The notes under the pieces were generated by a model. That model was not told the DNA's origin and ran no database searches. It saw only the letters and a program-made list of their open reading frames with translations. Below are positions 24,169-46,186 of a stretch of 64,000 nt of DNA, piece after piece. Positions within the stretch are counted from its first letter, which is position 1; every line of letters starts with the position of its first letter. Origin of the DNA: Myxococcota bacterium (lineage in GTDB: Bacteria > Myxococcota_A > Polyangia > Polyangiales > Sandaracinaceae); the NCBI GenBank assembly GCA_036149055.1, contig JAYZQJ010000074.1:1-64000 (forward strand), written 5' to 3'. Both the position numbers and the translations under genes were made by a program.

Positions 24169-24242
24169 AAGAAGGATCGCGGTGAGGCGTCGTGCTCTCC
24201 TCTTGCGCGAATGCGCGCGGGGGATGAATCTCGGGGGAGCCA

Positions 24243-24929: not shown

Positions 24930-24963
24930 CACGGCGCCTTCGACGGGGTCATCCTGTCCGGGC

Positions 24964-25749
24964 ATGGGCCAGCGCGGCGGCCAACCGAAGAGCGAGCCAC
25001 CGAGGCGCCCCGCCGTCCGGCGGACCGTCGCGAAGGACCGCGTCGGGCCGCTCCTCGAGTCCTTCTCGGAGGTGCGCCACCGCGCGTTCGGGCGCTCGCT
25101 CGAGGCGAAGCACCGCCAGACCACCGAGTCGCACCTCGCCGCGGCGCTCCTCCGCGAGGAGTCGGTGCGCCGGGCGGTCGCGGCGTGCGGCGCGGACCCG
25201 GACGACGTCGAGGCGCTCGTCGAGGGCACGGTGGATCAGGAGCCGCGCCGGCCGTGGTGGTCGCTGGCCCGCACCCGCGAGAGCCCCGGGCTGCTCTCGC
25301 TCTACGACCGCGCCCTCATGCACGCGATCAGCGCGGAGCTCGACCGGGTCAGCCCCGTGCTGCTGCTCATCCGCGTCGTCGAGTCGGCCCCGCCGAGCGT
25401 GGTGGCCGAGCGGCTCCTCGCCTTCGACGTCGACGAGGCCAGGCTCAAGCGCTGGGCGGCCCACGGCCGGGTGGACGACGCGCCGCTCCCGCGGGGATCC
25501 GGGCGCGCCGGCGTGCGGCTGCTCGACGACCCGTTCACCACGAAGGAGGCGGTGATCGCGCTGCTCACCACCCACCTCGACCTGGACGAGGAGCGCGCCG
25601 AGCGGCTGATGCTCCGGGTGCACGAGGGCGGCCGCGCGGTCGTCGGACGCGGGCCCTGGGACTGGGCGCGCCAGAAGGCGGAGGCGATCCGCGAGGAGGC
25701 CCGCGCCATGGGCTTCCCCCTCGGCGTCGAGCTCGAGCCCGAGGAGTGA
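24964..25749 (+). CDS. Clp N-terminal domain fused to a ClpS-like adaptor domain
   Basis: N-terminal Clp repeat-like 'H..TTESHLAAALL'. C-terminal ClpS-like 'VRLLDDPFTTKEAVIALL...LMLRVHEGGRAVVG...GFPL'. Confidence 0.75.
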   Translation: MGQRGGQPKSEPPRRPAVRRTVAKDRVGPLLESFSEVRHRAFGRSLEAKHRQTTESHLAAALLREESVRRAVAACGADPDDVEALVEGTVDQEPRRPWWSLARTRESPGLLSLYDRALMHAISAELDRVSPVLLLIRVVESAPPSVVAERLLAFDVDEARLKRWAAHGRVDDAPLPRGSGRAGVRLLDDPFTTKEAVIALLTTHLDLDEERAERLMLRVHEGGRAVVGRGPWDWARQKAEAIREEARAMGFPLGVELEPEE

Positions 25750-25750
25750 C

Positions 25751-26611
25751 CTACAACCCGAAGGCGAGCAGGGTACAGGTCTGCCCGACCGCGTCGGCGG
25801 GCCGGGTGTTCGGGATCTCCACCCGGTCGAGCTGGGTGGGCGCGCTCCCCGGGAAGACGACGTGCACGCGCGCGGAGCCGTGGGCGGGCACCCGCACCGG
25901 CGTCACCCAGGCGTCCGCGCCCGGCAGGCTGACCGGGCGGAGCGCGCGGCCGTCTCGGTCGGCGAAGGTCGCGGCGCCGATCGGGCCGAGCTGGAGGGTG
26001 CGGTCGGCGGGGTTCTCGAACACGAGCCAGACGCGTCGCCCGCCGTCGGGCAGCTGGCGCGGCACCGGGGCCACCGGCTCCTCGCCGTCCACCCGCACCG
26101 TCGCGCCCTCGCAGATGTCGCTGGCCCGCGCCGGCGGCAGCCCGGGCGGCGCGCTCGGCGGCGAGGAGGGAGGAGAGCGCATCCCCTGGGCCAGCTGCTC
26201 GAGCAGCTCTCGCATGCCCTCGCCGATCCCGCGCATCGCCTCGCCCAGATCGGCGCCCGGCAGCGCGCACTCGGCGATCACCGCGTCGCCCTCCCGCGGC
26301 GCGCCGGTGCCCGGGAGCAGCACCAGGGCCGGCTCGCCCCCCGCCGCCGTCGCCAGCGCGCACGCGTCCTGCCGGAGGGTCACCTGGTGGTCGCTCGAGA
26401 TCGACAGCTCCACGTCGACCTGCCCCTCGATGACGGTGACGCCCTCGACCTGGCCGACGCGCACGCCGGAGACCATCACCGGCGAGCCCTCGCCGAGGCC
26501 CGCGCCCTGGCTGATCCGCGCGTGGTGGGTGTCGTCGCAGCCGACGCACATCGACGCGGCCAGCGCGATCGCGAGCGAGACTCGAAGCTTCACGCCGCCA
26601 GTACACCGCAA
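25751..26611 (-). CDS. MlaD/MCE-domain lipoprotein
   Basis: 'GLGEGSPVMVSGVRVGQV' MCE signature and lipobox CVGC. The true start may be slightly downstream. Confidence 0.75.
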   Translation of the reverse strand: MRCTGGVKLRVSLAIALAASMCVGCDDTHHARISQGAGLGEGSPVMVSGVRVGQVEGVTVIEGQVDVELSISSDHQVTLRQDACALATAAGGEPALVLLPGTGAPREGDAVIAECALPGADLGEAMRGIGEGMRELLEQLAQGMRSPPSSPPSAPPGLPPARASDICEGATVRVDGEEPVAPVPRQLPDGGRRVWLVFENPADRTLQLGPIGAATFADRDGRALRPVSLPGADAWVTPVRVPAHGSARVHVVFPGSAPTQLDRVEIPNTRPADAVGQTCTLLAFGL

Positions 26612-26673
26612 CCGTCCGCTCTGTTCCAGCCGGTAGAGGGCGGGGCGGCGAGCGGCGCGGTAGGCTCCCCGCC

Positions 26674-27840
26674 ATGCCGAGATTCCCGAACACCGCGTCC
26701 AGCGCGGGCAGCCTCAGCGACCGCGTGTTCAGCCGCCTCGCGGCGCGCGCCCGGCAGCACGACGGCCCCCTCTACCCGCTGCACGTGGGCGACACCTGGA
26801 TGGAGCCGCTCGAGTCGGCGCGCGCGGAGGCCCAGCGCACCGAGGCGCATCCTCGCTTGCACAACTACGCGCCGGTCCAGGGAGAGCTCGCCCTCCTCGA
26901 GGCGATCGAGGCGCACCTGCAGCGCCGCGGCGAGTGCCTGGTGGACCGCGACTGCGTGCAGGTCACCAGCGGCGCGACGGCCGGGCTCAGCGTGGTGGCC
27001 GAGGCGCTCCTCGACCCCGGCGACGAGGTCCTCCTGCCCGCGCCGTTCTGGCCGCTGATCCGCGGCATCATCCGCAAGCGCGGCGCGGCCGCGGTGGAGG
27101 TGCCCTTCTTCGACCGCCTCGAGGATCCGGCGTGGGACGCGGAGGCGGCCCTCGAGGCGGCGGTGACCGAGAAGACCGCCGCGATCTACCTCAACACCCC
27201 CCACAACCCGACCGGGCGCATCCTCTCGGACGCGGAGATCGCGGCGGTCGCGAAGGTGGCCGAGCGTCACGATCTCTGGATCTGGTCGGACGAGGTCTAC
27301 GAGGAGCTCTACTTCGGGGCGTTCCCGCCGAAGCCGGTGTGGGCGCGCGCCGACTACCAGACGCGCTGCGTGGCCGTGCACTCGATGTCGAAGGCCTACG
27401 GGCTGGCCGGCGCCCGGGTCGGCTGGGCCCACGGGCCGCACGAGGCGATGAAGGCGATCCGCGGCGTGCAGACCTTCTCGACCTACTGCGCGCCGCGGCC
27501 GATGCAGCTCGGCGCGGCCAACGCCCTGCGGGAGGGCGGCGCGTGGCTGGAGCAGGCGCGCCGGAGCTACGAGGAGGCCGCCGAGCGCACCGCGCGCACC
27601 CTCGGACTGCGCAAGCCCGACGGCGGCACCTTCGTCTTCTTCGACGTCTCGGCCCGCCGCCGGGAGGGAGAGGACACCCTCGGCCTGCTCGAGCGCTGCC
27701 TCGACGCGGGCGTGCTCCTGACGCCCGGCGCCGCCTCCGGGGAGGCCTACGAGAGCTGGGTCCGCCTGTGCTTCACCAGCGTGCGCCCGGAGGAGCTCCA
27801 GGAGGCGCTGGATCGGATCGCGCCGATCGTCGGCGCCTGA
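26674..27840 (+). CDS. PLP-dependent aminotransferase class I/II
   Basis: 'NTPHNPTG', 'SDEVY' and 'SMSKAYGLAGARVG'. Confidence 0.92.
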   Translation: MPRFPNTASSAGSLSDRVFSRLAARARQHDGPLYPLHVGDTWMEPLESARAEAQRTEAHPRLHNYAPVQGELALLEAIEAHLQRRGECLVDRDCVQVTSGATAGLSVVAEALLDPGDEVLLPAPFWPLIRGIIRKRGAAAVEVPFFDRLEDPAWDAEAALEAAVTEKTAAIYLNTPHNPTGRILSDAEIAAVAKVAERHDLWIWSDEVYEELYFGAFPPKPVWARADYQTRCVAVHSMSKAYGLAGARVGWAHGPHEAMKAIRGVQTFSTYCAPRPMQLGAANALREGGAWLEQARRSYEEAAERTARTLGLRKPDGGTFVFFDVSARRREGEDTLGLLERCLDAGVLLTPGAASGEAYESWVRLCFTSVRPEELQEALDRIAPIVGA

Positions 27841-27844
27841 CCGC

Positions 27845-28177
27845 TCACCCGAGCGTGGCCCAGAGCTCGCACCAGCCGGCCGGGTGGATGGGGCCCTCCA
27901 GCACGCGGCAGCTGCCGCAGCGCCCCTCGCCGCCGGACTGGTAGTAGCGGCAGTTGTCGCAGCGCTCCTCCGGGCGCGGCGACTCGTCCACGTAGCTCTG
28001 CTGACGGCGGGCCGCGATGACGGCCTGCGAGAGCCCGGTGGTGTCGTCGCAGCGGAGCGCGGGCTCCCCCTGCTGCTCCTCGCCACACCCGACGAGCGAC
28101 GGCGCGACCGCGGCCGCCCCGAGCACGAGCAGCGCCCTCCTCCGACCGATCTTCAGAGTCGTCATCGTGTCCTCCAA
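27845..28177 (-). CDS. High-potential iron-sulfur protein (HiPIP), Tat-exported lipoprotein
   Basis: GRRRAL Tat motif plus LVGC, and the HiPIP Cys pattern CDNC...C...GWC. Confidence 0.8.
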   Translation of the reverse strand: MEDTMTTLKIGRRRALLVLGAAAVAPSLVGCGEEQQGEPALRCDDTTGLSQAVIAARRQQSYVDESPRPEERCDNCRYYQSGGEGRCGSCRVLEGPIHPAGWCELWATLG

Positions 28178-28210
28178 CAGTTTCGGCCCACCCGACCGTG
28201 TCTACAGGCA

Positions 28211-28259
28211 TGGGGGCCCGATCCCCGGGCACAGGATACCCGCTGGGGGCCCGATCCCC
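28211..28259. repeat. 16-bp direct repeat (TGGGGGCCCGATCCCC x2) in a divergent intergenic region
   Basis: Copies at 28211-28226 and 28244-28259, with period 33. Confidence 0.7.
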
Positions 28260-28341
28260 CGAGCCTCATCGCTCGTAGAGCATTCTCACAGACTTCCATC
28301 GCCAGCACGGCGATTGCAGCCGACCCGCTCGGGGGAGACGC

Positions 28342-28944
28342 ATGAACCCGCTCACACGACTCGAAGAGACCCTCTCACCCGACCTCGCTCGGTGGCTTCA
28401 CGCCGCGGAGGGGGATCTCTCGCTGGCCTGGCGCACCTGCCCTCGACCGGACTGGCTGATCCAGATCGCGCTGTCGCTCGGCGTCGATCGGAGCCTGGTG
28501 GTGCACGCGGCCCTCGAGGTCGCGGTCGACGCGGTCTCCCGCCACCGCATCGCCGATCTTCGCCCGCGCCGCGCGCTGATGACCGCCCTCGGCTGGATCG
28601 ACGGGCGCGCGCCCGGCACCGAGACGTGGGCCCACGGCTTCGCGGCCAACGAAGTGGCGGAGGCGCTCGAGGGGCCGGCGCGGCACGCGGCCCACGCGGC
28701 GGCCTGCGTGGCCTTCGCCTGCGACGATCAGGCCGACGAGGCCTACTACGCGCACCGCGCCTACGCGGCCCTCGCCGTGCGTCACGCGGCGAGCGCCCTC
28801 GACCCGGCGCGCTGCTGCGTGACGATCCGCGATCGCATCCCGCTCGCGGTCGTGCTCGAGCGCTTCGACGTGGCCTCGCGCCCGCCGCCGCCGCTCCCGC
28901 TCGGCCTCGACCCGGCCGAGATCAGCGACTCGTTCTACTGCTGA
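28342..28944 (+). CDS. Hypothetical protein (Ala-rich, helical)
   Basis: GGAG SD before the ATG and 'AWRTCPRPDWL' motif. Function unknown. Confidence 0.65.
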   Translation: MNPLTRLEETLSPDLARWLHAAEGDLSLAWRTCPRPDWLIQIALSLGVDRSLVVHAALEVAVDAVSRHRIADLRPRRALMTALGWIDGRAPGTETWAHGFAANEVAEALEGPARHAAHAAACVAFACDDQADEAYYAHRAYAALAVRHAASALDPARCCVTIRDRIPLAVVLERFDVASRPPPPLPLGLDPAEISDSFYC

Positions 28945-37032: not shown

Positions 37033-38100
37033 ATGTCGGAGCCGGTCTCGCGCGTGTTGGTGCTGTACACCGGGGGCACCATCGGGATGAAGAAGGGCGC
37101 CCGCGGCTACGAGCCGGTCGAGGGCTGGTTCGCCGAGGAGATCGCGCGGCAGCCGCAGCTCCACGACCCGAGCCGCGAGCGCTTCACCACCTTCCCCTCC
37201 CGCAGCGGCCGGCGCATCCGCTACGACATCGAGGCCTACTCGCCCCCGCTCGACTCGGCGAACCTCGCGCTCGCCGACTGGGCGCGGTTCGCGGCCGACA
37301 TCGGGCGGCACTACGACGCCTACGACGCGTTCGTCGTCGTGCACGGCACCGACACGATGGCGTACACGGCCAGCGCGCTGAGCTTCATGCTCGCCGGGCT
37401 GACCAAGCCGGTGATCCTGACCGGCGCGCAGATCCCCCTCGAGCAGCTCCGCAACGACGCCCTCGACAACCTCCTGGGCGCGCTCGGGCTGGCAGGGCAC
37501 TACCGCATCCCGGAGGTCGGGCTCTACTTCCACCACAAGCTCCTCCGGGGCTGCCGGGCGACCAAGGTCGACGCGGCCGGGCTCGACGCCTTCGACTCGC
37601 CCAACCTGCCGCCCCTCGCCGAGGTGGGCATCGACGTCGAGGTCCGGTGGGGCGTGGTGCGCTCGCCGCCGGTCGGCGGCCTCGACGTGCACACCGACCT
37701 GAGCCCGCACGTGGCCGCGCTGCGGCTCTACCCCGGCATCACCCGGGCCATCCTCGAGAACTTCCTCCGGCCGCCGCTCGAGGGGCTGGTGCTCGAGACG
37801 TTCGGCAGCGGCAACGCGCCCGACCGCGACGACGACCTGCTCGGCGCGCTCCGGGACGCGTCCGAGCGCGGGGTGGTGATCGTGAACGTGACCCAGTGCC
37901 TCAAGGGCCACGTGCGCACGAAGTACGCCGCCGGCCGGGCGCTGCTCGACGCGGGCGTGGTGCCCGGCGCGGACATGACGCCCGAGGCGGCGCTGGCCAA
38001 GCTCGCGTTCCTGCTCGGGCAGGGGCTGCCCCCCGACGAGGTGCGCGCCCTCGCCGGCCGCTCGCTGCGCGGCGAGCTGACCGAAGAGGTCGAGGACTGA
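37033..38100 (+). CDS. ansA: L-asparaginase type I
   Basis: 'YTGGTIGM', 'HGTDTMAY', 'TGAQ' and '[11 protein letters not shown]'. Confidence 0.9.
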
Positions 38101-38105
38101 ACGCC

Positions 38106-39323
38106 ATGGACGTGCTGTTCCTCTCGCCGAGCTACCCGCCGGAGATGCAGCAGTTCACCCGGGGGCTCGCCGAGGTCGGCGCGCGGGTCTACGGGGTGGG
38201 CGACACCCCGGAATCCGAGTTGACGACTGCCGTGCGCGGCGCGCTCTCGGCGTACCTGCACGTCCCGAGCTCGCTCGACGAGGCGGACGTGACCCGGCGG
38301 CTCGAGGGCTGGCTGCGCGGGCGCAACGTCGACCGGGTGGAGACCAACTGGGAGCCGATGATCCTGCTCGCCGCCGACCTCCGCGCCCGCTGGGGCCTGC
38401 CGGGGATGCGCCGCGAGCAGGTGCTCGCGTTCCGCGACAAGGTGCTGATGCGAGAGCGCCTCGCCGCGGCCGGGCTCCGGGTGCCGCGCACCTTCCGGGT
38501 GCGCACGGCGGACGAGGCCTGGGCGGCGGCGGAGCGCGTCGGCTACCCGCTGATCTTCAAGCCGATCGCCGGCGCGGGCTCGGCCGACACCTGGCGCGCG
38601 GGCTCACCGGCGGAGCTGTCCGACGTGCTCGCCCGGACCGCGCACGTGCCCGAGGCCAGCGTCGAGGAGCTGATCGAGGGCGACGAGCTCACCTACGAGA
38701 CCCTCTGCGTCGACGGCGCGCCGGTCCTCGAGGGCTGCTGCCGGTACTACCCGAACGTGCTCGACGCCCGGAAGAACGAGTGGATCAGCCCGATCATCCT
38801 GAGCCTGCGCGACCTCGCGAGCGAGGAGACCGCGCGCGGCGTGGCCCTCGGGCGGCGCGCCCTCGACGCGCTCGGCATGGGCACCGGCTTCACCCACATG
38901 GAGTGGTTCCGGACCGCCGCGGGCGAGGCCGTCTTCGGCGAGATCGCGTGCCGCGCGCCCGGCGCGAACATGGTCGACCTGATGAACTACGCGGGCGACG
39001 TCGACCTCTTCGTCGAGTGGGCGCGCGCGGTCGTGCACGGCCGGGTCGAGGCGCCGGCGGAGAACCCCCACCACGCGGCCATCGTCTTCAAGCGCGCCCG
39101 GGGCCAGGGACGCATCCGGGCCATCGAGGGGCTCGACGCCTTCCTCCACGCCCACCGCGCCCACGTCGCGCGGGTGGACCTCCTGCCCATCGGCGCGCCG
39201 CGCCGGGACTGGCAGCAGACCTTCCTCGGCGACGGAAACCTCGTCGTGCGTCACCCCGACCGCGACGCCGCCCTCGCCCTGGCCCAGCGCGCCGCCTCGA
39301 CCATCCACCTCTACGCCGGCTGA
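38106..39323 (+). CDS. ATP-grasp domain protein
   Basis: 'FRDKVLM', 'YPLIFKPIAGAGS', 'EELIEG' and 'HMEWF...EIACR'. Confidence 0.85.
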   Translation: MDVLFLSPSYPPEMQQFTRGLAEVGARVYGVGDTPESELTTAVRGALSAYLHVPSSLDEADVTRRLEGWLRGRNVDRVETNWEPMILLAADLRARWGLPGMRREQVLAFRDKVLMRERLAAAGLRVPRTFRVRTADEAWAAAERVGYPLIFKPIAGAGSADTWRAGSPAELSDVLARTAHVPEASVEELIEGDELTYETLCVDGAPVLEGCCRYYPNVLDARKNEWISPIILSLRDLASEETARGVALGRRALDALGMGTGFTHMEWFRTAAGEAVFGEIACRAPGANMVDLMNYAGDVDLFVEWARAVVHGRVEAPAENPHHAAIVFKRARGQGRIRAIEGLDAFLHAHRAHVARVDLLPIGAPRRDWQQTFLGDGNLVVRHPDRDAALALAQRAASTIHLYAG

Positions 39324-39342
39324 CCCCGCTTGGCGCTACGGG

Positions 39343-39509
39343 GACGGAGTTTCCTCGTTGCCGAACGCCTCTCCTCGGCCACGATCGGCCCGGTCAGAGC
39401 CTCCGGGGCCTGGGAGAGCCGAAGCGACACGGCGCCGACGCGTGCGTTCTCGGCGAGCTCCTCGCCCCTCGCGCCGCGCGGGCCCGGTTGGGCAACGAGG
39501 AGCTCCGTC
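39343..39509. mobile_element. MITE-like element with ~20-bp terminal inverted repeats
   Basis: GACGGAGTTTCCTCGTTGCC (39343-39362) is nearly the reverse complement of GGCAACGAGGAGCTCCGTC (39491-39509). Confidence 0.55.
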
Positions 39510-39534
39510 TCAGGACCTGTCCCAGGACCTGTTC

Positions 39535-40149
39535 TCAATCGCGGAACTTGATGGAGCAGCCGATCGAGCGGGTCTGGGCGTTGGCGATCGGGCGGCCGGC
39601 GACGAGGGCGTCGAGGGCGTCGGCGAGGTGGCGCTGCTGCACCTGGTCGGGCTGGTGCGCGTTGTCGTCGACCGCGCCGTGGTAGACGAGCCGGCCGCGG
39701 CGGTCGAAGAGGAAGACCTCGGGGGTGCGGGTGGCGCCGAAGCGCCGCGCGACGTTCGAGGTCTCGTCGACGACGTACGGGAAGCGCATGCCCGCCGCTC
39801 GGTGTCGCCGCTGCATCTCCTCGAAGCCGTCGGAGGGGTACTCCCCGGGGTCGTTCGGGTTGATCGCGATCACCCCGACGCCGCGGCCGAGGGCGGCGTT
39901 GCCGAGCTCGGTGATGCGCGCCTCCCAGGCCTGCGCCCAGGGGCAGTGGTTGCACGTGAAGATCACCAGGGTGCCGCGCTCGCCGGCGGCGCTCTGGATG
40001 GAGACCTGCTGGCCGTCCACGTTGCGCATGCGGTGGGTCCGCATCGGCGCCTGGGCGCCGAGCGCGAGCGCGTCCTGCGCGTGGGCGCCGGAGGCGAACG
40101 CGGTGAGGGCGAGGGTCAGCGTGGTCGCGATCGAGAGGGTCTTCGTCAT
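39535..40149 (-). CDS. Exported thioredoxin/redoxin-family protein (PRX-like1)
   Basis: Signal peptide, 'FTCNHCPW', 'TPEVFLFD', 'YHGAVDD' and 'IGCSIK'. Confidence 0.88.
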   Translation of the reverse strand: MTKTLSIATTLTLALTAFASGAHAQDALALGAQAPMRTHRMRNVDGQQVSIQSAAGERGTLVIFTCNHCPWAQAWEARITELGNAALGRGVGVIAINPNDPGEYPSDGFEEMQRRHRAAGMRFPYVVDETSNVARRFGATRTPEVFLFDRRGRLVYHGAVDDNAHQPDQVQQRHLADALDALVAGRPIANAQTRSIGCSIKFRD

Positions 40150-40730
40150 CGTCCTGCTTCGGCTTCGGTGCCCGTTCCCGGGCGAGCTGTTCTCAGATGG
40201 GCTTCGATCGGCCCTCGCAGCGCCGCCTCGTCGACGGGCTCGGGCCAGAAGTGCACGACGCGGCGCTCGCGGTCGAGGAGGAGCGTCGCCGGGAGCGCGC
40301 CAGACCACTCGGGGTGCAGCGCCTCGATGAAGGCGTCGTCGCCGCCGGTCTTGAAGTAGCTCGGCTCCGGCGCGCCCTGCTCCCGCAAGAAGGAGAGCGC
40401 CTCCGCGCGGCGGGTCGGCGGCTCGGCCGCGATCAGCGCGAGCCCGAGGCCCTGCCCCTCGTAGCGACGCGCGGTGGCGATGACGTCGGGCATCTCCTCG
40501 ACGCAGGGCTCACACCAGGTGGACCAGACGTTGACGAGCAGCGCCGGCGCCGGGTGCTCCCGCAGGGTCTCCCGCACCGACGTCGCGTCGACGTCGATCC
40601 ACGGGCTCTCCGCCGCCACCTCGGGCGCCGCCTCCGCGGCCGGGGCCGGGGCGGGGGGCTCCGCCGGCGGCTCGGGATCGGCCGCGCCGCTGCAGGCGGT
40701 GAGCGCGAGGGCGACCCAGACCGGACGCAT
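40146..40730 (-). CDS. TlpA-family disulfide reductase lipoprotein
   Basis: LTAC lipobox, 'NVWSTWCEPCVEEMP' and 'LPATLL'. Confidence 0.88.
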   Translation of the reverse strand: MRPVWVALALTACSGAADPEPPAEPPAPAPAAEAAPEVAAESPWIDVDATSVRETLREHPAPALLVNVWSTWCEPCVEEMPDVIATARRYEGQGLGLALIAAEPPTRRAEALSFLREQGAPEPSYFKTGGDDAFIEALHPEWSGALPATLLLDRERRVVHFWPEPVDEAALRGPIEAHLRTARPGTGTEAEAGR

Positions 40731-40845
40731 TCCGACCGCTGTCATGGAGGACACTGTGGAGCCGCTTCGGGACGGCGCCACCCCCAAATCCGGTCCTCGG
40801 TGGAAGCTCGCGGGGCTGCGGCGGCTCGACAGGGGTCATTCCTGG

Positions 40846-42549
40846 CTACGTGTCCATCGCCGCGCGGATCGCGGCGCCGAGCGCGCGCGGGTCGCCGGGG
40901 GCGATCTCGGTGACGCCCTCGAGGCCACGCAGGCCGCAGGCGGGCGAGGCGATCACCGGGACGCCGCGACCGAGCGCGCGCAGGAGCGGCGACGGATCCC
41001 GGGGGACCCAGGCGGGCGCGACCACGACCGCGGCGCCGTCGAGCGGATCGGCGCCCGGCGCTCGCACCGGACGGCCCCAGTCGAAGCCGCCCTCGAGGTC
41101 GCGGCCGCCCACGATCAGCGGCGAAGGCAGCCCGCGCGCCGCGTCCCGGAGGGCGTGCGCGCCCTCGCGCCCGACCACCGGCCCGAGGAACGCGATCGCG
41201 TCGCCGCGGCGAGCGGGCGCGCCTCGAGGCACGCGCCACGCCAGCTTCACCGCCCGCGGCCCGAAGGCGTCGGCGATCGCGGCGTGGGGCGTGATCACGC
41301 GCCGAGCCCGGGCGAGCGCGACCTCCTCGTCGGCGACGAGCCCGGCCGGGGCGCGGAAGTCGGCGAGGGTCGGGCTCTCGGGGTGCCGGCGCGCGGCCTC
41401 GTCGAGGCGGGCCTGGAGGAGCCGCAGGGGCCAGCGACGCATCACCACGTCGAAGGTGCGGCCGCCGAGCGCGCCCTCTCGGTGGAGGTGCGGCAGGAGG
41501 TGCTGGTGCACCACGAGGTGGGTGTCCTCGGGCCCCAGGCGCGCGGCCATCCAGCCGGCCAGCCGGGCGTCGTGCGCGAGCAGGGCCCGCTGACGGGCGG
41601 CGCCCTGACTGCCGAGCCGACGGCTCTCGAGGGCGCGGCGCGCGACGAGCGCGAGCGCCTGATCGACACGCGAGAAGCCCGCCGTCGTCCAGGCGTAGCG
41701 GGGCCGCCGCCAGCGCTGTCCGTCGCAGGGGATCAGCAGCCGGTCCCCCGGGCGACGCGCGCCGGAGAGCCAGTCGTCGATCTCCGGCGTCACGCCGTCG
41801 AGCAGGAAGGCCGTCCGTCCGACCGGCGCGGCGAGCTCCGGCGCTCTCGAGACGCAGCCGGTGCGGGCGCAGCGGTCGCAGCTCCCGGTGGGCTCCGGTC
41901 GCCGCGCCAGCGAGACCCGCGTCGGCGCCGCGCCGCGCCCCCGCAGCCGCACCTCGAGGTGGGTCGCGTCGAGCGCCACCTCCACCCCGAACGGCGCCGG
42001 CGCGGTGAAGCGCAGGTCGACGTAGCGCCAGAAGACGGTGGCGTCGCGGCCGCGCTCGGCGAGCGATCCCGGCACCACGACCGAGTGGGCGTGCCGCTCC
42101 ACGATCTCGAAGCCGGCCTCGAGCGCGGCGTCGTAGAGGGCGTTCGAGAGCTGGCAGAGGCCGCCGCCGACCGAGGGCACGAGGCACCCCTCCCGGACCT
42201 CGCGCCCGAGCGCGTACCCGCCGCGCCGGGTGGGCCGGCCGACGTGGCGCCAGAAGCTGAAGATCTCGCCGGCCTCGAACCGCCGCCCGTGCAGCGCGCG
42301 CGCCGCGACCCGGAGGTTCTGCACCTTCCCCGCCTCGAGCCGCCGCTCGGCCGCGGGCTCGGCTGAGCGGGACCAGAGCGGGGTGCGCGAGCGCCCGGCC
42401 ACCGGGAGATGGTCGATCCCGCCGCGCCGGCCGAGCGGGGTGGGCGCGCGGAGCTCCGCGGCCGCGCGGATGAGCTGATGACGCGCCGCGCGCGCTTCGA
42501 ACCAGGCGCGCGACAGCTGCTGCCGCGCCCACGAGCCCTCGCGCTCCAC
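40846..42549 (-). CDS. VanW-domain protein fused to a glycosyltransferase-like C-terminal domain
   Basis: VanW motifs 'FSFWRHVG', 'GGGLCQLSNALY', 'ERHAHS' and 'DATVFWRYVDLRF', a CDRCARTGC linker, and a GT-B-like 'REGA...LLRALGRGVPVIASPACG'. Confidence 0.8.
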   Translation of the reverse strand: MEREGSWARQQLSRAWFEARAARHQLIRAAAELRAPTPLGRRGGIDHLPVAGRSRTPLWSRSAEPAAERRLEAGKVQNLRVAARALHGRRFEAGEIFSFWRHVGRPTRRGGYALGREVREGCLVPSVGGGLCQLSNALYDAALEAGFEIVERHAHSVVVPGSLAERGRDATVFWRYVDLRFTAPAPFGVEVALDATHLEVRLRGRGAAPTRVSLARRPEPTGSCDRCARTGCVSRAPELAAPVGRTAFLLDGVTPEIDDWLSGARRPGDRLLIPCDGQRWRRPRYAWTTAGFSRVDQALALVARRALESRRLGSQGAARQRALLAHDARLAGWMAARLGPEDTHLVVHQHLLPHLHREGALGGRTFDVVMRRWPLRLLQARLDEAARRHPESPTLADFRAPAGLVADEEVALARARRVITPHAAIADAFGPRAVKLAWRVPRGAPARRGDAIAFLGPVVGREGAHALRDAARGLPSPLIVGGRDLEGGFDWGRPVRAPGADPLDGAAVVVAPAWVPRDPSPLLRALGRGVPVIASPACGLRGLEGVTEIAPGDPRALGAAIRAAMDT

Positions 42550-42606
42550 GTCGGGTCATACGCGCCGGGCCCCCGCCATTCTTCCCCGGGGACGCGGCCG
42601 CGGCGA

Positions 42607-42676
42607 CAGGCCGTCAGGGAATCGAACCCTGCGCGGCGGGGGTTGGAAGCCCGCCTGTGCGCACAGCACCCGGCCT
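42607..42676 (-). tRNA. Non-canonical tRNA-Gly(TCC)-like element
   Basis: Acceptor AGGCCG/CGGCCT, T-arm CAGGG-TTCGATT-CCCTG, anticodon arm GCGGG-CTTCCAA(CC)-CCCGC and a minimal D-arm CTGT-GCGC-ACAG. No encoded CCA. Confidence 0.65.
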
Positions 42677-42726
42677 ATGTGGATTGTTCCGGACGGAATC
42701 GTCCGTTTGATCGCGCGTGCGATCGA

Positions 42727-42820
42727 TCGGGGTGACAGGACTCGAACCTGCAATGCCCGAAGGCTCCCGGGCTACAACCGGGTGGGGGTACCAGCTCGTA
42801 CCAGCTCCCCCTTCACCCCG
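42727..42820 (-). tRNA. Non-canonical tRNA-Tyr(GTA)-like element
   Basis: Acceptor CGGGGTG/CACCCCG, anticodon arm CCCGG-TTGTAGC-CCGGG, variable arm GCC-TTCG-GGC and T-arm GCAGG-TTCGAGT-CCTGT. The D-loop carries a 10-nt duplication. No encoded CCA. Confidence 0.72.
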
Positions 42821-42861
42821 CTCTCTCCGCCGTGCGGGGGCGGCGACCGGGCGGGTGACGG

Positions 42862-42896
42862 AAAAGAAAAACCGCCCGGCCTGGAGGCCTGGGCGG
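42862..42896 (-). terminator. Intrinsic terminator (attenuator) between the leader ORF and the tRNA-like genes
   Basis: Minus strand reads CCGCCCAGGCC-TCCA-GGCCGGGCGG followed by TTTTTCTTTT. Confidence 0.85.
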
Positions 42897-42924
42897 CGAT
42901 CGATCACGACGCGTACGCGACGGA

Positions 42925-42993
42925 TCAGGCCGACACCGGACCTCCGGTCGGAATGCGCCAGACGCGCCAGAGTCGATAGGTGTGACGGCTCAT
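42925..42993 (-). CDS. Putative 22-aa leader peptide MSRHTYRLWRVWRIPTGGPVSA
   Basis: ATG at 42993 and TGA at 42927-42925, lying directly between the promoter and the terminator. Confidence 0.6.
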   Translation of the reverse strand: MSRHTYRLWRVWRIPTGGPVSA

Positions 42994-43002
42994 GATGCCT
43001 CC

Positions 43003-43031
43003 GTCTTACGTCGCCTTCGCGCCCCTGTCAA
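43003..43031 (-). promoter_or_regulatory. sigma70-type promoter
   Basis: TTGACA (43031-43026), a 17-bp spacer and TAAGAC (43008-43003). It overlaps the methylase stop codon. Confidence 0.7.
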
Positions 43032-44116
43032 GAGATCAGTGACAGTTGTTCGTCGCCCTTCAATCCGGCTTCGTGGAACGCCCGCTCCACCGAGGCCGCG
43101 GCGCGCTCCACCCGAGCTCGGTCGGGGCCGACGAGGAAGATCATCTCCCGGTTGCGGGTGTGGCTGACCTCGCCGACCCGCCGGCCCTTGGGATCGTGGA
43201 TGCCGATCTTGGCGCCGACGTACCGATCGAAGCCGGTGGTGGCCACCCGGACGTGGCCGCGCTCGGAGAGCATCGCCTCGAGCGTCTCCCGGTCGAGGAA
43301 GCCCTCGTCGCTGAAGCTCACCACCAGCTCGGGGGCGCGCACCGCGGCCACCACCCGCGCCATCGCCTCGGCGATGCGGCGGCGGCTGTTGAAGGGGTTC
43401 TTGTAGGTCTTGCAGTCGATCCGCTTGTTCGCGACGCCGTAGGTCTCCGGATCGTCCCAGCGCACCAGGGTCTCCCACACGTGGTAGTTCCCCTTGTAGC
43501 TGTGCTGGTTGTAGGGCGGGTCGAGGTAGGCCACGTCCGCCTCGACCCCGGCCGCCTCCTCCGCCTCGAGCTGGAGCGCCTCGCCCGGCCCCTCGGTGAG
43601 CGCCGGCAGCCGCAACGCGAGCGGGTTGTAGCTGCGCTTCGCCCAGCTCTTCAGGTACGCCATCTGGACGCCGGTCGTGGAGTCGACGCGGTCCGCGGCC
43701 TCCATGAGCGCGGTGAGCGCGATGGCCTCGAGCTCCGGTGAGAGCGTCTGGGCCGCGATCGCCTCGCGCATGCCCTCCACCCGGGCGCCGTTGTCGGGCT
43801 GCAGGTAGCGCGCGTCCCGGCAGAAGGCCTGCGTGAACCAGCCGTCCCGCGGCGGCGCCTCGGCCAGCGCCTCGAGCAGCCGCGCGGCCGGCTCGCGGTG
43901 CTCCCGGGCGTCCGCCGCCACGTAGCAGCGCGCGAGGGTCGCCGCGTAGGCGAGGTGGTCGTTGGAGGTCACCCGGAGCCCGGCCTCCTTGAGCGCGCGC
44001 CCCACCCGCGCCGTCCCGCTGAAGAGATCGAGCGCGCGCTTCGCGCCGCCGAAGCCGGTGACGCCGGCCACGATCGGGCCGATGAGCTTGCGCTTGCTGC
44101 CGATGTACTTGATCAC
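43028..44116 (-). CDS. DNA adenine methyltransferase (D12/Dam-like class), apparently orphan
   Basis: 'KYIGSK', SAM motif 'DLFSGTA' and catalytic 'YLDPPY'. GTG start at 44116. Confidence 0.9.
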   Translation of the reverse strand: MIKYIGSKRKLIGPIVAGVTGFGGAKRALDLFSGTARVGRALKEAGLRVTSNDHLAYAATLARCYVAADAREHREPAARLLEALAEAPPRDGWFTQAFCRDARYLQPDNGARVEGMREAIAAQTLSPELEAIALTALMEAADRVDSTTGVQMAYLKSWAKRSYNPLALRLPALTEGPGEALQLEAEEAAGVEADVAYLDPPYNQHSYKGNYHVWETLVRWDDPETYGVANKRIDCKTYKNPFNSRRRIAEAMARVVAAVRAPELVVSFSDEGFLDRETLEAMLSERGHVRVATTGFDRYVGAKIGIHDPKGRRVGEVSHTRNREMIFLVGPDRARVERAAASVERAFHEAGLKGDEQLSLIS

Positions 44117-44179
44117 GCCGAGCGCATCTTCGTCGATCCCCCTCCCGTCGCAAGGCGGTTGACTGATATTCTCGCGGCC

Positions 44180-46186
44180 ATGGATCCGCTCTGCCCGCGC
44201 TCGGTCGTCGATACGGTTCGCACGGAGCAGACGGACCTGCCCCTGGACGTCGTGGAGGGGACCTACCCGTCGGATCTGCGCGGGCACCTCTACATGGTCT
44301 CGCCGGCGCACACCTTCGACGCCGACCCGGCCGCGCGCCGCACGACGCTGATGGTCGGCGATGGGCTCGTGACCCGCTTCGACCTCGAGAACGGGCCGAC
44401 GCTCACGAGCCGGCTCGCGAAGACCTTCGACTACGTCGCCGACGAGCTGACGCACACCGATCCGGACCTGCGCGCCTTCCGGTTCGAGAACGCCGGGCTG
44501 GTCCGCATCAGCCTGCTCGGCACGCGGGACTTCGCGAACACCGCGTTCGTGCCGATGAAGATCGGGAGCGAGCCCACGCGGCTGGTGCTCACCTACGACG
44601 CCGGCCGGCCGGTCGAGATCGATCCGGTGACCCTCGAGGTCGTCACCCCGGTGGGCGCGCGCGACGACTGGCGCCCCGAGGCGCTGCCCGACCAGGTCTT
44701 CCCCACCGTGCTGAGCCCGGCGCACCCCGCCTACGACCGCGCGACCGGCGAGCTGTTCACGCTCAACTACGGCCGCGGCATCGCCAACTTCGCGCTCACC
44801 GTCCCCATCGTCTACCTGCTGAGCAAGCTGCCCCGCTGGGCGCAGCACGCCTTCCACCAGGTCGCCACCCTGCTCGGCGTCGAGCAGGCGTACCGCTGGC
44901 TGCTCAAGCATTTCGAGCGCCTCACCACGCGGGTCGATCGCTGCCTCGAGCGCTTCCAGGACCGGTGCCTGCCGTTCTTGCCCGACACCTTCACCGACGT
45001 GGTGCGGTGGGACGGCAGCGGCGCCTTCGAGCGGTGGCGAATGGTCCTTCCGAACGGGCGCGAGGTCTCGATCGCGCAGTCGGTGCACCAGATCGCGGTC
45101 ACGGCGGAGCACGTCGTCGTGCTCGAGACCGGCTTCAAGATCGGCATGCAGTCGGCCTTCAACGACCCGTTCACGCCCGACGGCTTCGACATGCTGCTGC
45201 GCGCGATGCTGACCAAGCCGCAGCTCCCCTACACCGTGTTCTACGTGCTGAAGCGCGCCGACCTGCGGCCCGACGCCCCGCGCGGCGACGACGGCGTGCG
45301 GCGGGTGCCCTGCCGCCGCGTGCAGATCCCCGTCGAGGCCGACCACTTCCTCGCCGACTACGACGACTCGGGCGGCCTGATCCTGCACGTCGCCCACGCC
45401 CCGGCCACCGATCTCGCGGAGTGGATCCGCCCCTACGACCGCTCGCACTACGACGGCGGGGAGATCGACGACGCGCTGCACGGGATGCTGGCGGTCGGCG
45501 CGATGGACGTGGGCCGCTTCGGTCGCTACCGGATCGACGGCGACACCGGCCGGGTGCTCGAGTCGGACGTGCTCGCGGACGACGAGCTGGGCTGGGCGAT
45601 CGCGCTCTACGCCGGCCAGCAGCTCAACACCGAGGACGCGCTGCCGGATCGCATCGAGAACCTCTGGTGGTGCACCGAGGGCGTCTTCCCGGATCTGCTG
45701 ACCCGCTTCGTCTACGACCTCTACGAGCGCTACCCACACCGGCTGACCCCGCTGTCCGAGATGGCGAAGCTGGCCGAGGGCGGCCGGCCCTCGGGGGTGG
45801 TGCGCCTCGACACGCGCACGCTGACCATCGCCGACCGCTTCCCCCTGCCGAAGGGCGTGATGGCCGGCTCGCTCCAGCTCGTCCCCAAGCCGAACGCGAC
45901 CTCGGATCTCGACGCCTACCTCGTGGGCACGATGTACACCGACACGCGCACCGAGCTCTGGGTGCTGGACGCGGGGGACCTCGCGGCCGGGCCCGTCTGC
46001 AAGCTCGCCTCACCGAGCTGGCGCACCGGCTTCTCGCTCCACACCGCCTGGCTCCCGACCCTGCAGCCCCGCACGTCGAGCTACGTCGTCCGCGCCGAAG
46101 ACGACCTCCGCCGACAGGTCGAGGCGCTCGGAAACCCGGCGCTGACCGATCGCTTCGCTCAGGACCTCTACCCGCGATTTCCCTGA
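44180..46186 (+). CDS. Carotenoid oxygenase (RPE65/CCD) family protein
   Basis: 'EGTYPSDLRG', 'GDG', 'ANTA', and four candidate Fe-ligating His residues (AHP, VHQ, DHF, LHT). Confidence 0.8.
   Translation: MDPLCPRSVVDTVRTEQTDLPLDVVEGTYPSDLRGHLYMVSPAHTFDADPAARRTTLMVGDGLVTRFDLENGPTLTSRLAKTFDYVADELTHTDPDLRAFRFENAGLVRISLLGTRDFANTAFVPMKIGSEPTRLVLTYDAGRPVEIDPVTLEVVTPVGARDDWRPEALPDQVFPTVLSPAHPAYDRATGELFTLNYGRGIANFALTVPIVYLLSKLPRWAQHAFHQVATLLGVEQAYRWLLKHFERLTTRVDRCLERFQDRCLPFLPDTFTDVVRWDGSGAFERWRMVLPNGREVSIAQSVHQIAVTAEHVVVLETGFKIGMQSAFNDPFTPDGFDMLLRAMLTKPQLPYTVFYVLKRADLRPDAPRGDDGVRRVPCRRVQIPVEADHFLADYDDSGGLILHVAHAPATDLAEWIRPYDRSHYDGGEIDDALHGMLAVGAMDVGRFGRYRIDGDTGRVLESDVLADDELGWAIALYAGQQLNTEDALPDRIENLWWCTEGVFPDLLTRFVYDLYERYPHRLTPLSEMAKLAEGGRPSGVVRLDTRTLTIADRFPLPKGVMAGSLQLVPKPNATSDLDAYLVGTMYTDTRTELWVLDAGDLAAGPVCKLASPSWRTGFSLHTAWLPTLQPRTSSYVVRAEDDLRRQVEALGNPALTDRFAQDLYPRFP

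What the first reader, a model, noticed from the sequence alone, without database searches (positions are those of the whole stretch)
40846..43031. Leader-peptide attenuator controlling two non-canonical tRNA-like genes and a VanW-fusion gene: candidate translation-stress-responsive RNA system
Seen on the minus strand, in order: a TTGACA-17-TAAGAC promoter, a 22-codon ORF, a GC hairpin with a U-tract terminator, a tRNA-Tyr(GTA)-like fold, a tRNA-Gly(TCC)-like fold, and then 58 bp later the VanW/GT-like gene. The leader and RNAs are missing from the ORF track. Established knowledge: leader peptide plus terminator arrangements mediate ribosome-stalling attenuation, often antibiotic-induced, and extra tRNA operons induced by translation stress are known in some bacteria. 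Inference: when ribosomes stall, this unit releases tRNA mimics (decoys, or substrates for repair or non-ribosomal aminoacyl transfer) together with a cell-envelope-related VanW protein.
Basis: partly seen in the sequence, partly recalled or inferred. Interest (0 to 1): 0.9.

Follow-up and report, generated by a model that had tools for sequence, protein, structure and literature searches.

The report
Attenuator-led spare tRNA-Tyr/Trp mini-operon
A 429-base unit holds a tiny reading frame, a switchable transcription stop and two odd tRNA genes (Tyr and Trp, not Gly); it is a cut-down copy of the head of the long spare-tRNA gene arrays of related bacteria, and probably lets the tRNAs be made only when ribosomes lag.

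Summary
On the minus strand lie a weak promoter-like site, a 22-codon ORF (42993-42925), a strong hairpin with a T-tract (42897-42862), a class II tRNA-Tyr(GUA)-like gene (42819-42728) and a second tRNA-like gene (42677-42605). A VanW gene starts 55 nt later.

The second RNA is not Gly(TCC). Seven homologues show a conserved Trp-type CUCCAAA loop, A1-U72 and G73 in a non-canonical but covarying fold.

The unit matches the heads of 7- to 19-gene tRNA arrays in related genomes. Twelve of 15 array heads examined carry the same ORF-stop / spacer hairpin / terminator layout. This genome's own long array on another contig is one of them.

My best reading is ribosome-dependent attenuation of spare tRNA genes. 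Translation of the leader and conditional read-through are inferred, not shown. The window's antiterminator is no stronger than background, at rank 66 of 95 terminators in this genome.

This copy looks reduced and perhaps decaying. The Tyr gene is the lowest-scoring tRNA in the genome and has a 10-nt D-loop duplication. Contigs from near-identical strains lack the whole unit.

The VanW link is found only in this genus. The "decoy" idea has no support. I found no paper on this kind of control. The scan has noted similar attenuators before tRNA arrays on other DNA.

The parts
43003..43031 (-). Promoter-like site: TTGACA, 17 nt, TAAGAC, ending 9 nt before the leader ATG. The -35 overlaps the stop codon of the upstream methyltransferase gene.
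   Evidence: Read. The same geometry (TTGACT-17-CATACC-9-ATG) is in G001. The consensus scanner found none. There is no transcript-start data.
42925..42993 (-). Leader ORF of 22 codons plus stop (MSRHTYRLWRVWRIPTGGPVSA). Tyr codon 6 and Trp codons 9 and 12 lie in the 5' half of an internal hairpin (region 1, about 42977-42956). Region 2 (about 42952-31) ends at the stop codon.
   Evidence: An in-frame homologue with the stop at the aligned place is in G001, with a 12-nt indel. Three of 21 codons are cognate to the two downstream tRNAs, against 0.78 expected (P 0.042).
42900..42926 (-). Spacer hairpin between the stop codon and the terminator.
   Evidence: RNAfold. A hairpin sits at this place in every homologous leader folded, but its sequence is unrelated between them.
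42862..42897 (-). Intrinsic terminator: 11-pair bulged hairpin (-21.7 kcal/mol) followed by T5CT4.
   Evidence: It is conserved in 9 homologous loci, with 4 of 11 pairs showing compensatory changes. A contig from an RNA library runs across it to 42827.
42728..42819 (-). Class II tRNA-Tyr(GUA)-like gene with G37 and G73. A 10-nt tandem duplication (42807-42788) in the D loop is specific to this genome.
   Evidence: It is the lowest of 51 tRNA hits in the genome, 29.5 bits against 38.9-76.7 for the rest.
42605..42677 (-). Non-canonical tRNA-Trp(CCA)-like RNA, called X here. It has A1-U72 and G73, a 3-bp D stem directly after the acceptor stem, a 6-bp anticodon stem with a 31:39 mismatch (giving a 9-nt loop), and a normal T arm.
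   Evidence: In one search, 10 of 21 pairs have compensatory changes among 7 sequences. In one search it scores 92 bits on model R1, against 36.5 for the genome's canonical tRNA-Trp.
42598..43026 (-). The whole unit (429 nt). Contigs about 99% identical to the window, from two runs of one study, skip it and join 42597 directly to 43027.
   Evidence: table 5 (records of 883 and 208 nt).
40846..42549 (-). Neighbouring gene for a 567-aa VanW-domain protein with a weak GT1-like C-terminus. Not part of the conserved unit.
43028..44116 (-). Upstream D12-class (Dam-like) N6-adenine DNA methyltransferase gene. The start is approximate.
   Evidence: PF02086, E 4e-30. The G001 homologue is 80% identical at the same place.

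Best explanation
The 429-nt unit is a small operon of spare tRNA genes gated by a ribosome-dependent transcription attenuator.

Proposed mechanism:
- Transcription starts at or just before the leader ATG, or reads in from the methyltransferase gene.
- If a ribosome translates the 22-codon leader promptly to its stop codon, it covers region 2, which ends at that stop. The 3:4 terminator then forms and RNA polymerase stops at 42862.
- If the ribosome lags or stalls in region 1, which holds the Tyr and two Trp codons, region 2 is freed. It pairs with the 5' arm and loop of the terminator, polymerase reads on, and tRNA-Tyr and the Trp-type RNA X are made and cut out.

Origin: the unit descends from the head of the long tRNA arrays of this bacterial order, which carry the same design. 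In this genus it is cut down to two genes and shows signs of decay.

What is shown: the elements, their homology to array heads, and structural conservation of both RNAs and the terminator.

What is inferred: the promoter, translation of the leader, the switch, aminoacylation, and any use in translation.
For: 1. Homology to array heads.
- The leader, terminator, Tyr and X align with G001 (same genus) and with G018 (another genus, where tRNA-Ile follows).
- The Tyr homologue heads 7- to 17-gene arrays in G004, G021, G028, G041, G093 and G105.
- X lies inside those arrays, mostly between Asn and Asp or Phe.

2. Recurring layout.
- My terminator finder found a hairpin plus T-tract within 110 nt upstream of the first tRNA in 12 of 15 array heads.
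- Two of these are the unrelated-sequence heads of the long arrays of G000 (C148) and G001 (C91).
- The T-tract lies about 12 nt (C148) to 43 nt (window) before the first tRNA, which leaves no room for a sigma-70 promoter. These tRNAs must therefore be transcribed through the terminator.

3. An ORF stop at the switch.
- In the 11 heads whose leaders I read, an ORF stop overlaps or abuts the segment that can pair with the terminator's 5' arm.
- In G028, G004, G105 and G093 the full-length minimum-energy fold is the antiterminator.
- Indels between homologous leaders are in frame: 12 nt between G000 and G001, and 9 nt between G105 and G026.

4. Exact pattern. The region 2 / terminator pattern occurs at 6 sites in 5 of 401 genomes and 0 times in the reversed control. 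All 6 sites are at array heads.

5. Window fold. Regions 1:2 and 3:4 form in the minimum-energy fold. Region 2:3 forms when the 3' arm is left out.

6. Cognate codons. Tyr plus Trp codons make up 3 of 21 leader codons in the window (P 0.042). G018 has 3 of 14 (P 0.077). Combined, P is 0.02.

7. RNA-library contigs. One 156-nt contig (depth 18) spans 42982-42827, which covers the leader, runs across the terminator and goes 35 nt beyond the T-tract. Another bridges Tyr and X.

8. Conserved RNA structure. 10 of 21 pairs in X and 7 of 16 predicted pairs in Tyr show compensatory changes.
Against: 1. Against all 95 hairpin+T5 terminators of this genome, the energy gained by pairing the window's 5' arm with upstream sequence (-6.6 kcal/mol) ranks 66th. 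It is ordinary for this GC-rich DNA. G001 is the same. Only the long-array heads are at the strong end, with rank equivalents of 0 to 41.

2. There is no sign of selection on the peptide.
- G000 and G001 differ by 3 non-synonymous and 2 synonymous codons in the 10 aligned codons.
- The two G026 copies differ at 16 codons, 14 of them non-synonymous, with no excess at third positions. I counted this by eye.

3. Open frames are common in 73% GC DNA. Amino-acid diversity of the window's leader is as expected by chance (P 0.31).

4. The -10 is weak, and the scanner finds no promoter.

5. Three of 15 array heads (G021, G041, G016, all one genus) have no such terminator.

6. The Tyr gene carries a D-loop duplication, G37 and G73, and is the worst-scoring tRNA of the genome. 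Near-identical strains lack the unit. This copy may therefore be silent or dying.

7. Contigs cannot show strand, ends or that the material was RNA.
Confidence: 0.55

Rival explanations
1. The hairpin is simply the terminator of the upstream methyltransferase gene, or an insulator. The short ORF is a chance open frame, and the two tRNA-like genes are silent or decaying relics of an old array head.
For: - The antiterminator energy is at background (rank 66 of 95).
- The leader peptide shows no purifying selection (by eye).
- The Tyr gene has a D-loop duplication and the lowest tRNA score in the genome. G001's copy has a 7:66 mismatch instead.
- The unit is missing from near-identical strains.
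- The hairpin lies 131 nt after the methyltransferase stop and would terminate that gene too.
Against: - The homologous terminator travels with the tRNA genes under different upstream genes.
- It sits too close to the first tRNA for a promoter to fit between them.
- X keeps its fold through compensatory changes between G000 and G001 (pair 4:69 changes from C-G to U-A).
- A contig from an RNA library crosses the terminator.
Confidence: 0.22
2. It is a real attenuator, but the switch is set by something other than leader translation. That could be a protein, a small molecule, or an uncharged tRNA binding the leader RNA. The ORF would then be incidental.
For: - The conserved parts of the leaders are conserved at the nucleotide level and overlap the pairing segments, for example the GGAGG-type stretch and the region 2 segment.
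- Peptide sequences drift freely.
Against: - No Rfam family (T-box or any riboswitch) reaches its threshold on the window, and none of those kinds appears even at E up to 10 in 42300-43300.
- The stop codon keeps its place at region 2 in unrelated-sequence versions, C148 and G008.
- Indels are in frame.
- The spacer hairpin has no conserved sequence that a ligand or protein could read.
Confidence: 0.15
3. One reading: stalled ribosomes trigger release of tRNA mimics (decoys, or substrates for repair or non-ribosomal aminoacyl transfer) together with a cell-envelope VanW protein, as one stress system.
For: - X is structurally non-canonical and falls below the Rfam tRNA threshold.
- No terminator is visible between X and the VanW gene.
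- Y-RNA-like (YrlA) tRNA mimics do sit inside the long arrays of relatives and of this genome.
Against: - The VanW linkage is confined to one genus.
- The part of VanW that the contigs reach persists where the unit is absent.
- In relatives, Tyr and X are ordinary members of arrays of otherwise high-scoring tRNAs, mostly 45-74 bits in L035 and L031.
- X keeps a Trp-type anticodon loop, A1-U72 and G73.
- No aminoacyl-transferase or repair gene is adjacent.
Confidence: 0.05

Closest known systems
Leader-peptide transcription attenuators of amino-acid operons (trpL, hisL, pheL, leuL, thrL, ilvL of enterobacteria). Recalled textbook knowledge; pheL is also named in the abstract of PMC3082878, seen in a search listing.
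   Same: A short ORF with codons for the regulated supply lies in region 1. The stop codon sits next to region 2. Pairings 1:2, 2:3 and 3:4 are mutually exclusive. An intrinsic terminator stands before the regulated genes.
   Different: The regulated genes are tRNA genes, not biosynthetic enzymes. There is no run of regulatory codons, only 1 Tyr and 2 Trp scattered. In the long-array versions region 1 is not evident and the antiterminator is the default fold.
Ribosome-stalling attenuators of antibiotic-resistance genes found by Term-seq (for example the leaders of vmlR, lmo0919 and ermK). Recalled, not read here.
   Same: Any stall of the leading ribosome on a short ORF frees an antiterminator and lets transcription pass a terminator. 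This fits the long-array heads, where the antiterminator is the default.
   Different: The downstream genes are tRNAs. No drug response has been tested. No conserved arrest peptide is evident, apart from a loosely kept Pro two residues before the stop.
L-arrays, the long supernumerary tRNA gene arrays, and the trn operon of Anabaena sp. PCC 7120 (PMC8421152: abstract, outline and a term search; PMC10272220: abstract and outline).
   Same: Tight arrays of many extra tRNA genes beside a housekeeping set. They are said to spread horizontally and to be silent until translation is impaired. Relatives here have 7-19 tRNA genes within 2-7 kb, and this genome has one on contig C148.
   Different: In Anabaena the array is held off by the RHH repressor TrcR (PMC10272220 abstract). 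The terms attenuat*, leader and terminator do not occur in PMC8421152. The window's unit has only 2 genes.
Canonical bacterial tRNA-Trp and tRNA-Tyr (Rfam RF00005).
   Same: - X has a CCA anticodon in a CUCCAAA-type loop, A1-U72, G73 and a normal T arm. I recall these as the TrpRS identity set.
- The Tyr-like gene has a GUA anticodon, a long variable arm and a G1-C72 pair.
   Different: - X lacks the two-base 8-9 linker, has a 3-bp D stem without the usual layout, has a 31:39 mismatch, and scores under the tRNA cut-off.
- The Tyr-like gene has G37 and G73 where I recall A37 and A73 as the rule, plus a 10-nt D-loop duplication.

Membership tests
Leader-peptide transcription attenuator | Short ORF on the same strand, just upstream of the terminator | tested here: met
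   A 22-codon ATG ORF lies at 42993-42925. In-frame homologues are in G001 and G018, and ORFs end at the switch in all 11 array heads whose leaders I read.
Leader-peptide transcription attenuator | Intrinsic terminator between the leader and the regulated genes | tested here: met
   A hairpin of -21.7 kcal/mol with a T-tract at 42897-42862, 43 nt before the tRNA. It is conserved in 9 loci.
Leader-peptide transcription attenuator | Antiterminator that excludes the terminator and is masked by a ribosome at the end of the ORF | tested here: inconclusive
   The alternative fold exists, but its energy gain ranks 66 of 95 among this genome's terminators. In the long-array heads it is strong, with rank equivalents 0, 5, 8, 8, 19 and 19, and one at 41.
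Leader-peptide transcription attenuator | Regulatory codons cognate to the regulated product, placed in region 1 | tested here: inconclusive
   Tyr6, Trp9 and Trp12 lie in region 1. That is 3 of 21 codons against 0.78 expected (P 0.042). G001 gives P 0.18 and G018 gives P 0.077.
Leader-peptide transcription attenuator | The leader is translated and read-through depends on ribosome position | not testable with these tools
   The only indirect evidence is in-frame indels and one RNA-library contig crossing the terminator.
tRNA (Rfam RF00005) | Score at or above the gathering cut-off of 29 bits | tested here: met
   The Tyr-like gene scores 29.5 bits. It was not reported in the whole-window gathering scan.
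tRNA (Rfam RF00005) | Score at or above the gathering cut-off of 29 bits (RNA X) | tested here: not met
   The best match in the tRNA clan is tRNA-Sec at 24.1 bits, against a cut-off of 47. X nevertheless has a covarying four-arm fold.
L-array (long supernumerary tRNA gene array) | Many tRNA genes in one tight cluster | tested here: not met
   The window's unit has 2 genes. Homologous heads in relatives lead 7-17 genes. This genome's own array on C148 has 17 ARAGORN calls over 23469-28563.
L-array (long supernumerary tRNA gene array) | The genes are extra to a housekeeping set | tested here: inconclusive
   For Trp this holds: a canonical tRNA-Trp lies on C47 at 70.6 bits. For Tyr, the only other gene in the assembly is an unusual short-arm one on C208. 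The assembly has 289 contigs.
T-box or other known riboswitch leader | Match to an Rfam family | tested here: not met
   No family reaches its gathering score on the window. At E up to 10 the leader gives only a 24.6-bit match to rnk_pseudo (cut-off 55) and a 20.9-bit match to the sRNA ncS037 (cut-off 112), both far below cut-off.
VanW (PF04294) | Pfam domain above the cut-off | tested here: met
   115.4 bits against a cut-off of 27, residues 75-200 of the 567-aa product.

The most novel reading that the evidence does not exclude
Several families of this bacterial order keep an inducible "spare translation kit". It consists of long tRNA arrays that also hold Y-RNA-like RNAs and a structurally new tRNA-Trp (no 8-9 linker, 3-bp D stem, lengthened anticodon stem). 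All of it sits behind a leader ORF whose translation speed sets a terminator/antiterminator switch. On this reading the window's unit is a specialised offshoot. Its leader carries Tyr and Trp codons in region 1 and senses shortage of exactly the two tRNAs it controls. That would be demand-driven feedback on tRNA supply, which I did not find described for any cellular tRNA gene.
Probability: 0.3. Interest if true: 0.8.

Novelty: new variant of a known kind. Interest (0 to 1): 0.6.

Why it matters
Bacterial tRNA genes are usually described as controlled at the promoter, by growth rate and the stringent response. The one studied long array (Anabaena) is controlled by a repressor. A leader-ORF attenuator in front of tRNA genes would be a direct feedback from decoding speed to tRNA supply, made from parts known so far for amino-acid and resistance operons.

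The comparison also turns up two things in one bacterial order:
- A set of long tRNA arrays with this design.
- A conserved tRNA-Trp-like RNA whose fold breaks several cloverleaf rules. It is worth testing for charging and decoding.

For this window the practical message is more modest. The unit is a reduced and possibly decaying copy. The VanW gene is probably just the next gene, so annotation should add two tRNA-like genes and a leader rather than a new stress system.

Tried and rejected
- **Promoter and terminator scanner** on 42300-43300 gave 0 and 0 sites. It is too strict for a bulged stem and a weak -10, so it neither supports nor refutes.
- **Rfam.** Nothing reaches gathering score in the window. 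The sub-threshold hits rnk_pseudo, mascRNA and tRNA-Sec were treated as chance or as generic likeness to a terminator or tRNA.
- **Amino-acid completeness of leaders.** This idea came from earlier scan notes. The window gives P 0.31, G001 0.56, G018 0.36, G004 0.77 and C148 0.32. Only G028 (20 of 20 amino acids in 48 residues, P 0.006) stands out, with G093 at 0.075 and G105 at 0.10. I rejected it as a property of the window's leader.
- **Antiterminator strength as evidence.** The window's value is at background, so I dropped it as support for the window.
- **Codon-position analysis of the three G105/G026 leaders by script.** The counts given were made by eye from earlier outputs and are less reliable.
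- **Terminator-only BLAST hits** in L008, L014-L016, L018-L021, L023 and L025-L029 had no tRNA gene nearby. I set them aside as GC-rich hairpin look-alikes.
- **Housekeeping tRNA-Tyr.** A search with the C208 tRNA found close copies only in G001 and G014, so which tRNA-Tyr is the housekeeping one stays open.
- **RNA-library contigs.** Parts of the stretch without cover, and the places where contigs end (42827, 42791, 42596), cannot be read as RNA ends.
- **Sequencing-run habitats.** All shares were small (0.23 or less). I make no habitat claim.
- **Literature.** Three searches found no paper on leader-peptide control of tRNA genes or on tRNA arrays in myxobacteria. The library lacks most subscription journals. 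Supplements of PMC8421152, which may list arrays by phylum, were not opened.
Full report
**What is in the window**

The minus strand between 43031 and 42549 reads in this order:
- TTGACA, 17 nt, TAAGAC (43031-43003).
- Nine bases later, an ATG ORF of 22 codons (42993-42925).
- A 27-nt hairpin (42926-42900).
- An 11-pair bulged hairpin of -21.7 kcal/mol followed by T5CT4 (42897-42862).
- A tRNA-Tyr(GTA)-like gene (42819-42728).
- A second tRNA-like gene (42677-42605).
- After 55 nt, the start of a 567-aa ORF.

A GC3 profile shows which long ORFs are real genes. Upstream lies a D12-class adenine DNA methyltransferase gene ending at 43028. Downstream lies the 567-aa gene, which has a clear VanW domain and only a weak glycosyltransferase-like tail. 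The consensus scanner reported no promoter and no terminator here. The -10 is weak and the stem is bulged.

**The two RNAs**

ARAGORN calls Tyr(gta) and Trp(cca).

*The Tyr-like gene*
- Rfam's tRNA model gives it 29.5 bits, just over the cut-off of 29, with 13 extra bases in the D loop. It is the lowest of 51 tRNA hits in the genome; the others score 38.9-76.7 bits.
- Alignment with relatives shows the extra bases are a 10-nt tandem duplication found only in this genome.
- The gene is class II, with a long variable arm and a GUA anticodon. It has G37 and G73, whereas array-type Tyr genes of other genera have A at both places.
- Its anticodon, variable and T arms covary across 9 homologues: 7 of 16 predicted pairs have compensatory changes. 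The alignment is poor at the acceptor end.

*The second RNA, X*
- It does not reach the tRNA cut-off. Its best match in the tRNA clan is tRNA-Sec at 24.1 bits.
- Seven homologues share an invariant UCCAA in a CUCCAAA-type loop, A1-U72 and G73.
- The consensus fold has a 6-bp acceptor stem with a mismatch at 7:66, a 3-bp D stem directly after it, and a 6-bp anticodon stem closed by a mismatch. The T arm is normal. Ten of 21 pairs show compensatory changes.
- A covariance model of X run on 151 genomes of the order gave two score classes. Ten sites in 9 genomes scored 76-95 bits. Ordinary tRNA-Trp genes scored near 35-42 bits, and this genome's own on C47 scored 36.5. A few array-type variants fell in between.

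**Where the unit comes from**

- DNA search found leader, terminator, Tyr and X together in G001 (same genus) and in G018 (another genus, where tRNA-Ile follows).
- In G004, G021, G028, G041, G093 and G105 the Tyr homologue is the first gene of a tight array of 7 to 17 tRNA genes. X sits inside those arrays.
- This genome has such an array on contig C148, with 17 ARAGORN calls over 23469-28563. It starts Lys-Gln-Asn-Phe, the order that follows Tyr in relatives. G001 has one with 19 calls.
- The window therefore holds a two-gene offshoot of an array head.
- Arrays of this kind are described as L-arrays in PMC8421152 (abstract read). That paper does not use the terms Myxococc*, Deltaproteobacteria, attenuat*, leader or terminator.

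**The attenuator design**

- Upstream of the first tRNA, my terminator finder found a hairpin plus T-tract within 110 nt in 12 of 15 array heads. These are G000 C74 and C148, G001 C89 and C91, G018, G028, G004, G105, G093, G008 and two in G026.
- The three heads of one genus (G021, G041, G016) had none.
- The T-tract ends about 12 to 43 nt before the tRNA where I measured it. A sigma-70 promoter cannot fit there, so the tRNA genes must be reached through the terminator.
- In the 11 heads whose leaders I read, an ORF of 15 to 64 codons ends at or next to the segment that can pair with the terminator's 5' arm. A hairpin of unrelated sequence lies between the two.
- In G028, G004, G105 and G093 the minimum-energy fold of the whole leader is this antiterminator.
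- The exact pattern of that version occurs at 6 sites in 5 of 401 genomes and never in the reversed control. All 6 are at array heads.
- The terminator stem is conserved in 9 homologous heads. Its core is invariant, and 4 of 11 pairs show compensatory changes.

**The window's own switch**

- Here the minimum-energy fold pairs the ORF's codons 6-13 (region 1, with Tyr6, Trp9 and Trp12) with codons 15-21 (region 2), and forms the terminator.
- Without the 3' arm, region 2 pairs with the terminator's 5' arm and loop.
- This is the classical four-region layout: a ribosome stalled in region 1 frees region 2, and a ribosome at the stop codon covers it.
- Tyr plus Trp codons make up 3 of 21 leader codons against 0.78 expected (P 0.042). 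G001 has 2 of 25 (P 0.18). G018, whose unit holds Tyr, X and Ile, has 3 of 14 (P 0.077). G000 and G018 combined give P 0.02.

**Results against the reading**

- The energy gained by the window's antiterminator (-6.6 kcal/mol) ranks 66 of 95 among this genome's terminators, and G001 is alike. Only the long-array heads are strong, with rank equivalents of 0, 5, 8, 8, 16, 19 and 19, and weaker ones at 28, 37 and 41.
- The leader peptides drift freely. By eye, most codon differences are non-synonymous with no excess at third positions.
- The window leader's amino-acid diversity is as chance predicts (P 0.31). Only G028, with all 20 amino acids in 48 residues (P 0.006), stands out.
- Frames stay open and indels are in frame (12 nt and 9 nt). 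In 73% GC DNA that is weak evidence.
- Translation of the leader, the promoter and the switch are therefore inferred.

**Public RNA libraries**

Four metatranscriptome runs hold parts of the stretch as contigs.
- One 156-nt contig (depth 18, one difference) covers 42982-42827. That is the leader ORF, the terminator and 35 nt beyond the T-tract.
- Another (196 nt, no difference) covers 42791-42596 and bridges Tyr and X.
- In two runs of one study, contigs about 99% identical to the window join 42597 directly to 43027. They skip exactly the 429-nt unit, with no shared letters at the joint.
- So near-identical strains lack the unit while keeping the methyltransferase gene and the 5' part of the VanW gene that the contigs reach (125 and 172 nt).
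- Contigs cannot show strand, ends or that the template was RNA, and I could not check DNA runs.

**The VanW gene**

- A homologue of the 567-aa protein was found in 3 of 32 genomes of the family: G000, G001 and G017.
- G001 has the same methyltransferase / unit / VanW order.
- G017, in another genus, has no tRNA gene within 1.5 kb on either side.
- No terminator is visible between X and the VanW start, so read-through into it is possible. It is not part of the conserved system.

**Comparison with what is known**

- The logic is that of leader-peptide attenuators of amino-acid operons. For the long-array heads it is that of ribosome-stalling attenuators of resistance genes. Both are recalled knowledge.
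- The regulated genes are new for this logic. In the one studied L-array, control is by the repressor TrcR (PMC10272220, abstract).
- Three full-text searches found no paper on leader-peptide control of tRNA genes or on tRNA arrays in myxobacteria.
- The scan itself has noted leader-ORF attenuators before tRNA arrays on other DNA, namely several phages and one other genome. Those are unchecked notes that agree with this reading but are not independent proof. Their idea of amino-acid-complete leaders did not hold for this window.

**Verdict**

It is wrong on decoys and on VanW.

This copy is a reduced member of the family, and perhaps a failing one. Tallies include one genome flagged as unpublished (G023). 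No specific claim rests on it.

Noticed in passing
window 42598-43026: Contigs from two metatranscriptome runs of one study, about 99% identical to the window, join 42597 to 43027. They lack the whole leader/terminator/Tyr/X unit, and there is no microhomology at the joint. This is a presence/absence polymorphism among near-identical strains, or less likely an RNA-level joint.
   Followed up: partly
G000 contig C148:23469-28990 (locus L061): This genome's own long tRNA array has 17 ARAGORN calls and starts Lys-Gln-Asn-Phe. About 12 nt before the first tRNA sits a 64-codon ORF, a spacer hairpin and a terminator of the same design as the window's but of unrelated sequence.
   Followed up: partly
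G000 C148:25876-25997 and 27979-28108; L035:828-960; G001 C91:108435-108550: Y-RNA-like (Rfam YrlA) matches lie in the gaps of the long tRNA arrays. They score 70.1 bits (G105) and 70.6 bits (G001), above the cut-off of 69. This genome's two score 57.6 and 52.6 bits, below it. I did not look for an Rsr (Ro) gene.
   Followed up: partly
G000 contig C208:24813-24883 (locus L060): The only other tRNA-Tyr(GUA) in the assembly is 71 nt long, with a short variable arm and a C1-G72 first pair. I recall that shape from archaeal and eukaryotic tRNA-Tyr rather than bacterial. It scores 59.8 bits on the tRNA model. Close copies, in tandem pairs, were found only in G001 and G014.
   Followed up: partly
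loci L035, L071, L074, about 150 nt upstream of the leader ATG: By eye, a conserved TGGCAC-N5-TCGCT stretch sits upstream of the leaders of G105 and both G026 arrays. It resembles the sigma-54 -24/-12 consensus as I recall it. Not tested.
   Followed up: no
loci L031:275-347, L037:293-366, L056:907-980: Arrays of relatives hold tRNA genes that ARAGORN reads as Ile with anticodon TAT, next to Ile(GAT).
   Followed up: no
G000 contigs C30, C42, C94, C128, C150, C192: ARAGORN makes six 91-nt calls of unknown type ('tRNA-???', anticodon 'ag'). Two sit at contig ends (C94, C128). They look like a repeated element rather than tRNA genes.
   Followed up: no
window 43898-46186 (+) and 38100-40787: The neighbours are an RPE65/carotenoid-oxygenase-family gene divergent from the methyltransferase, two redoxin/AhpC-like genes, an ATP-grasp ligase-like gene and an asparaginase. 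None has an evident tie to tRNA or translation.
   Followed up: no
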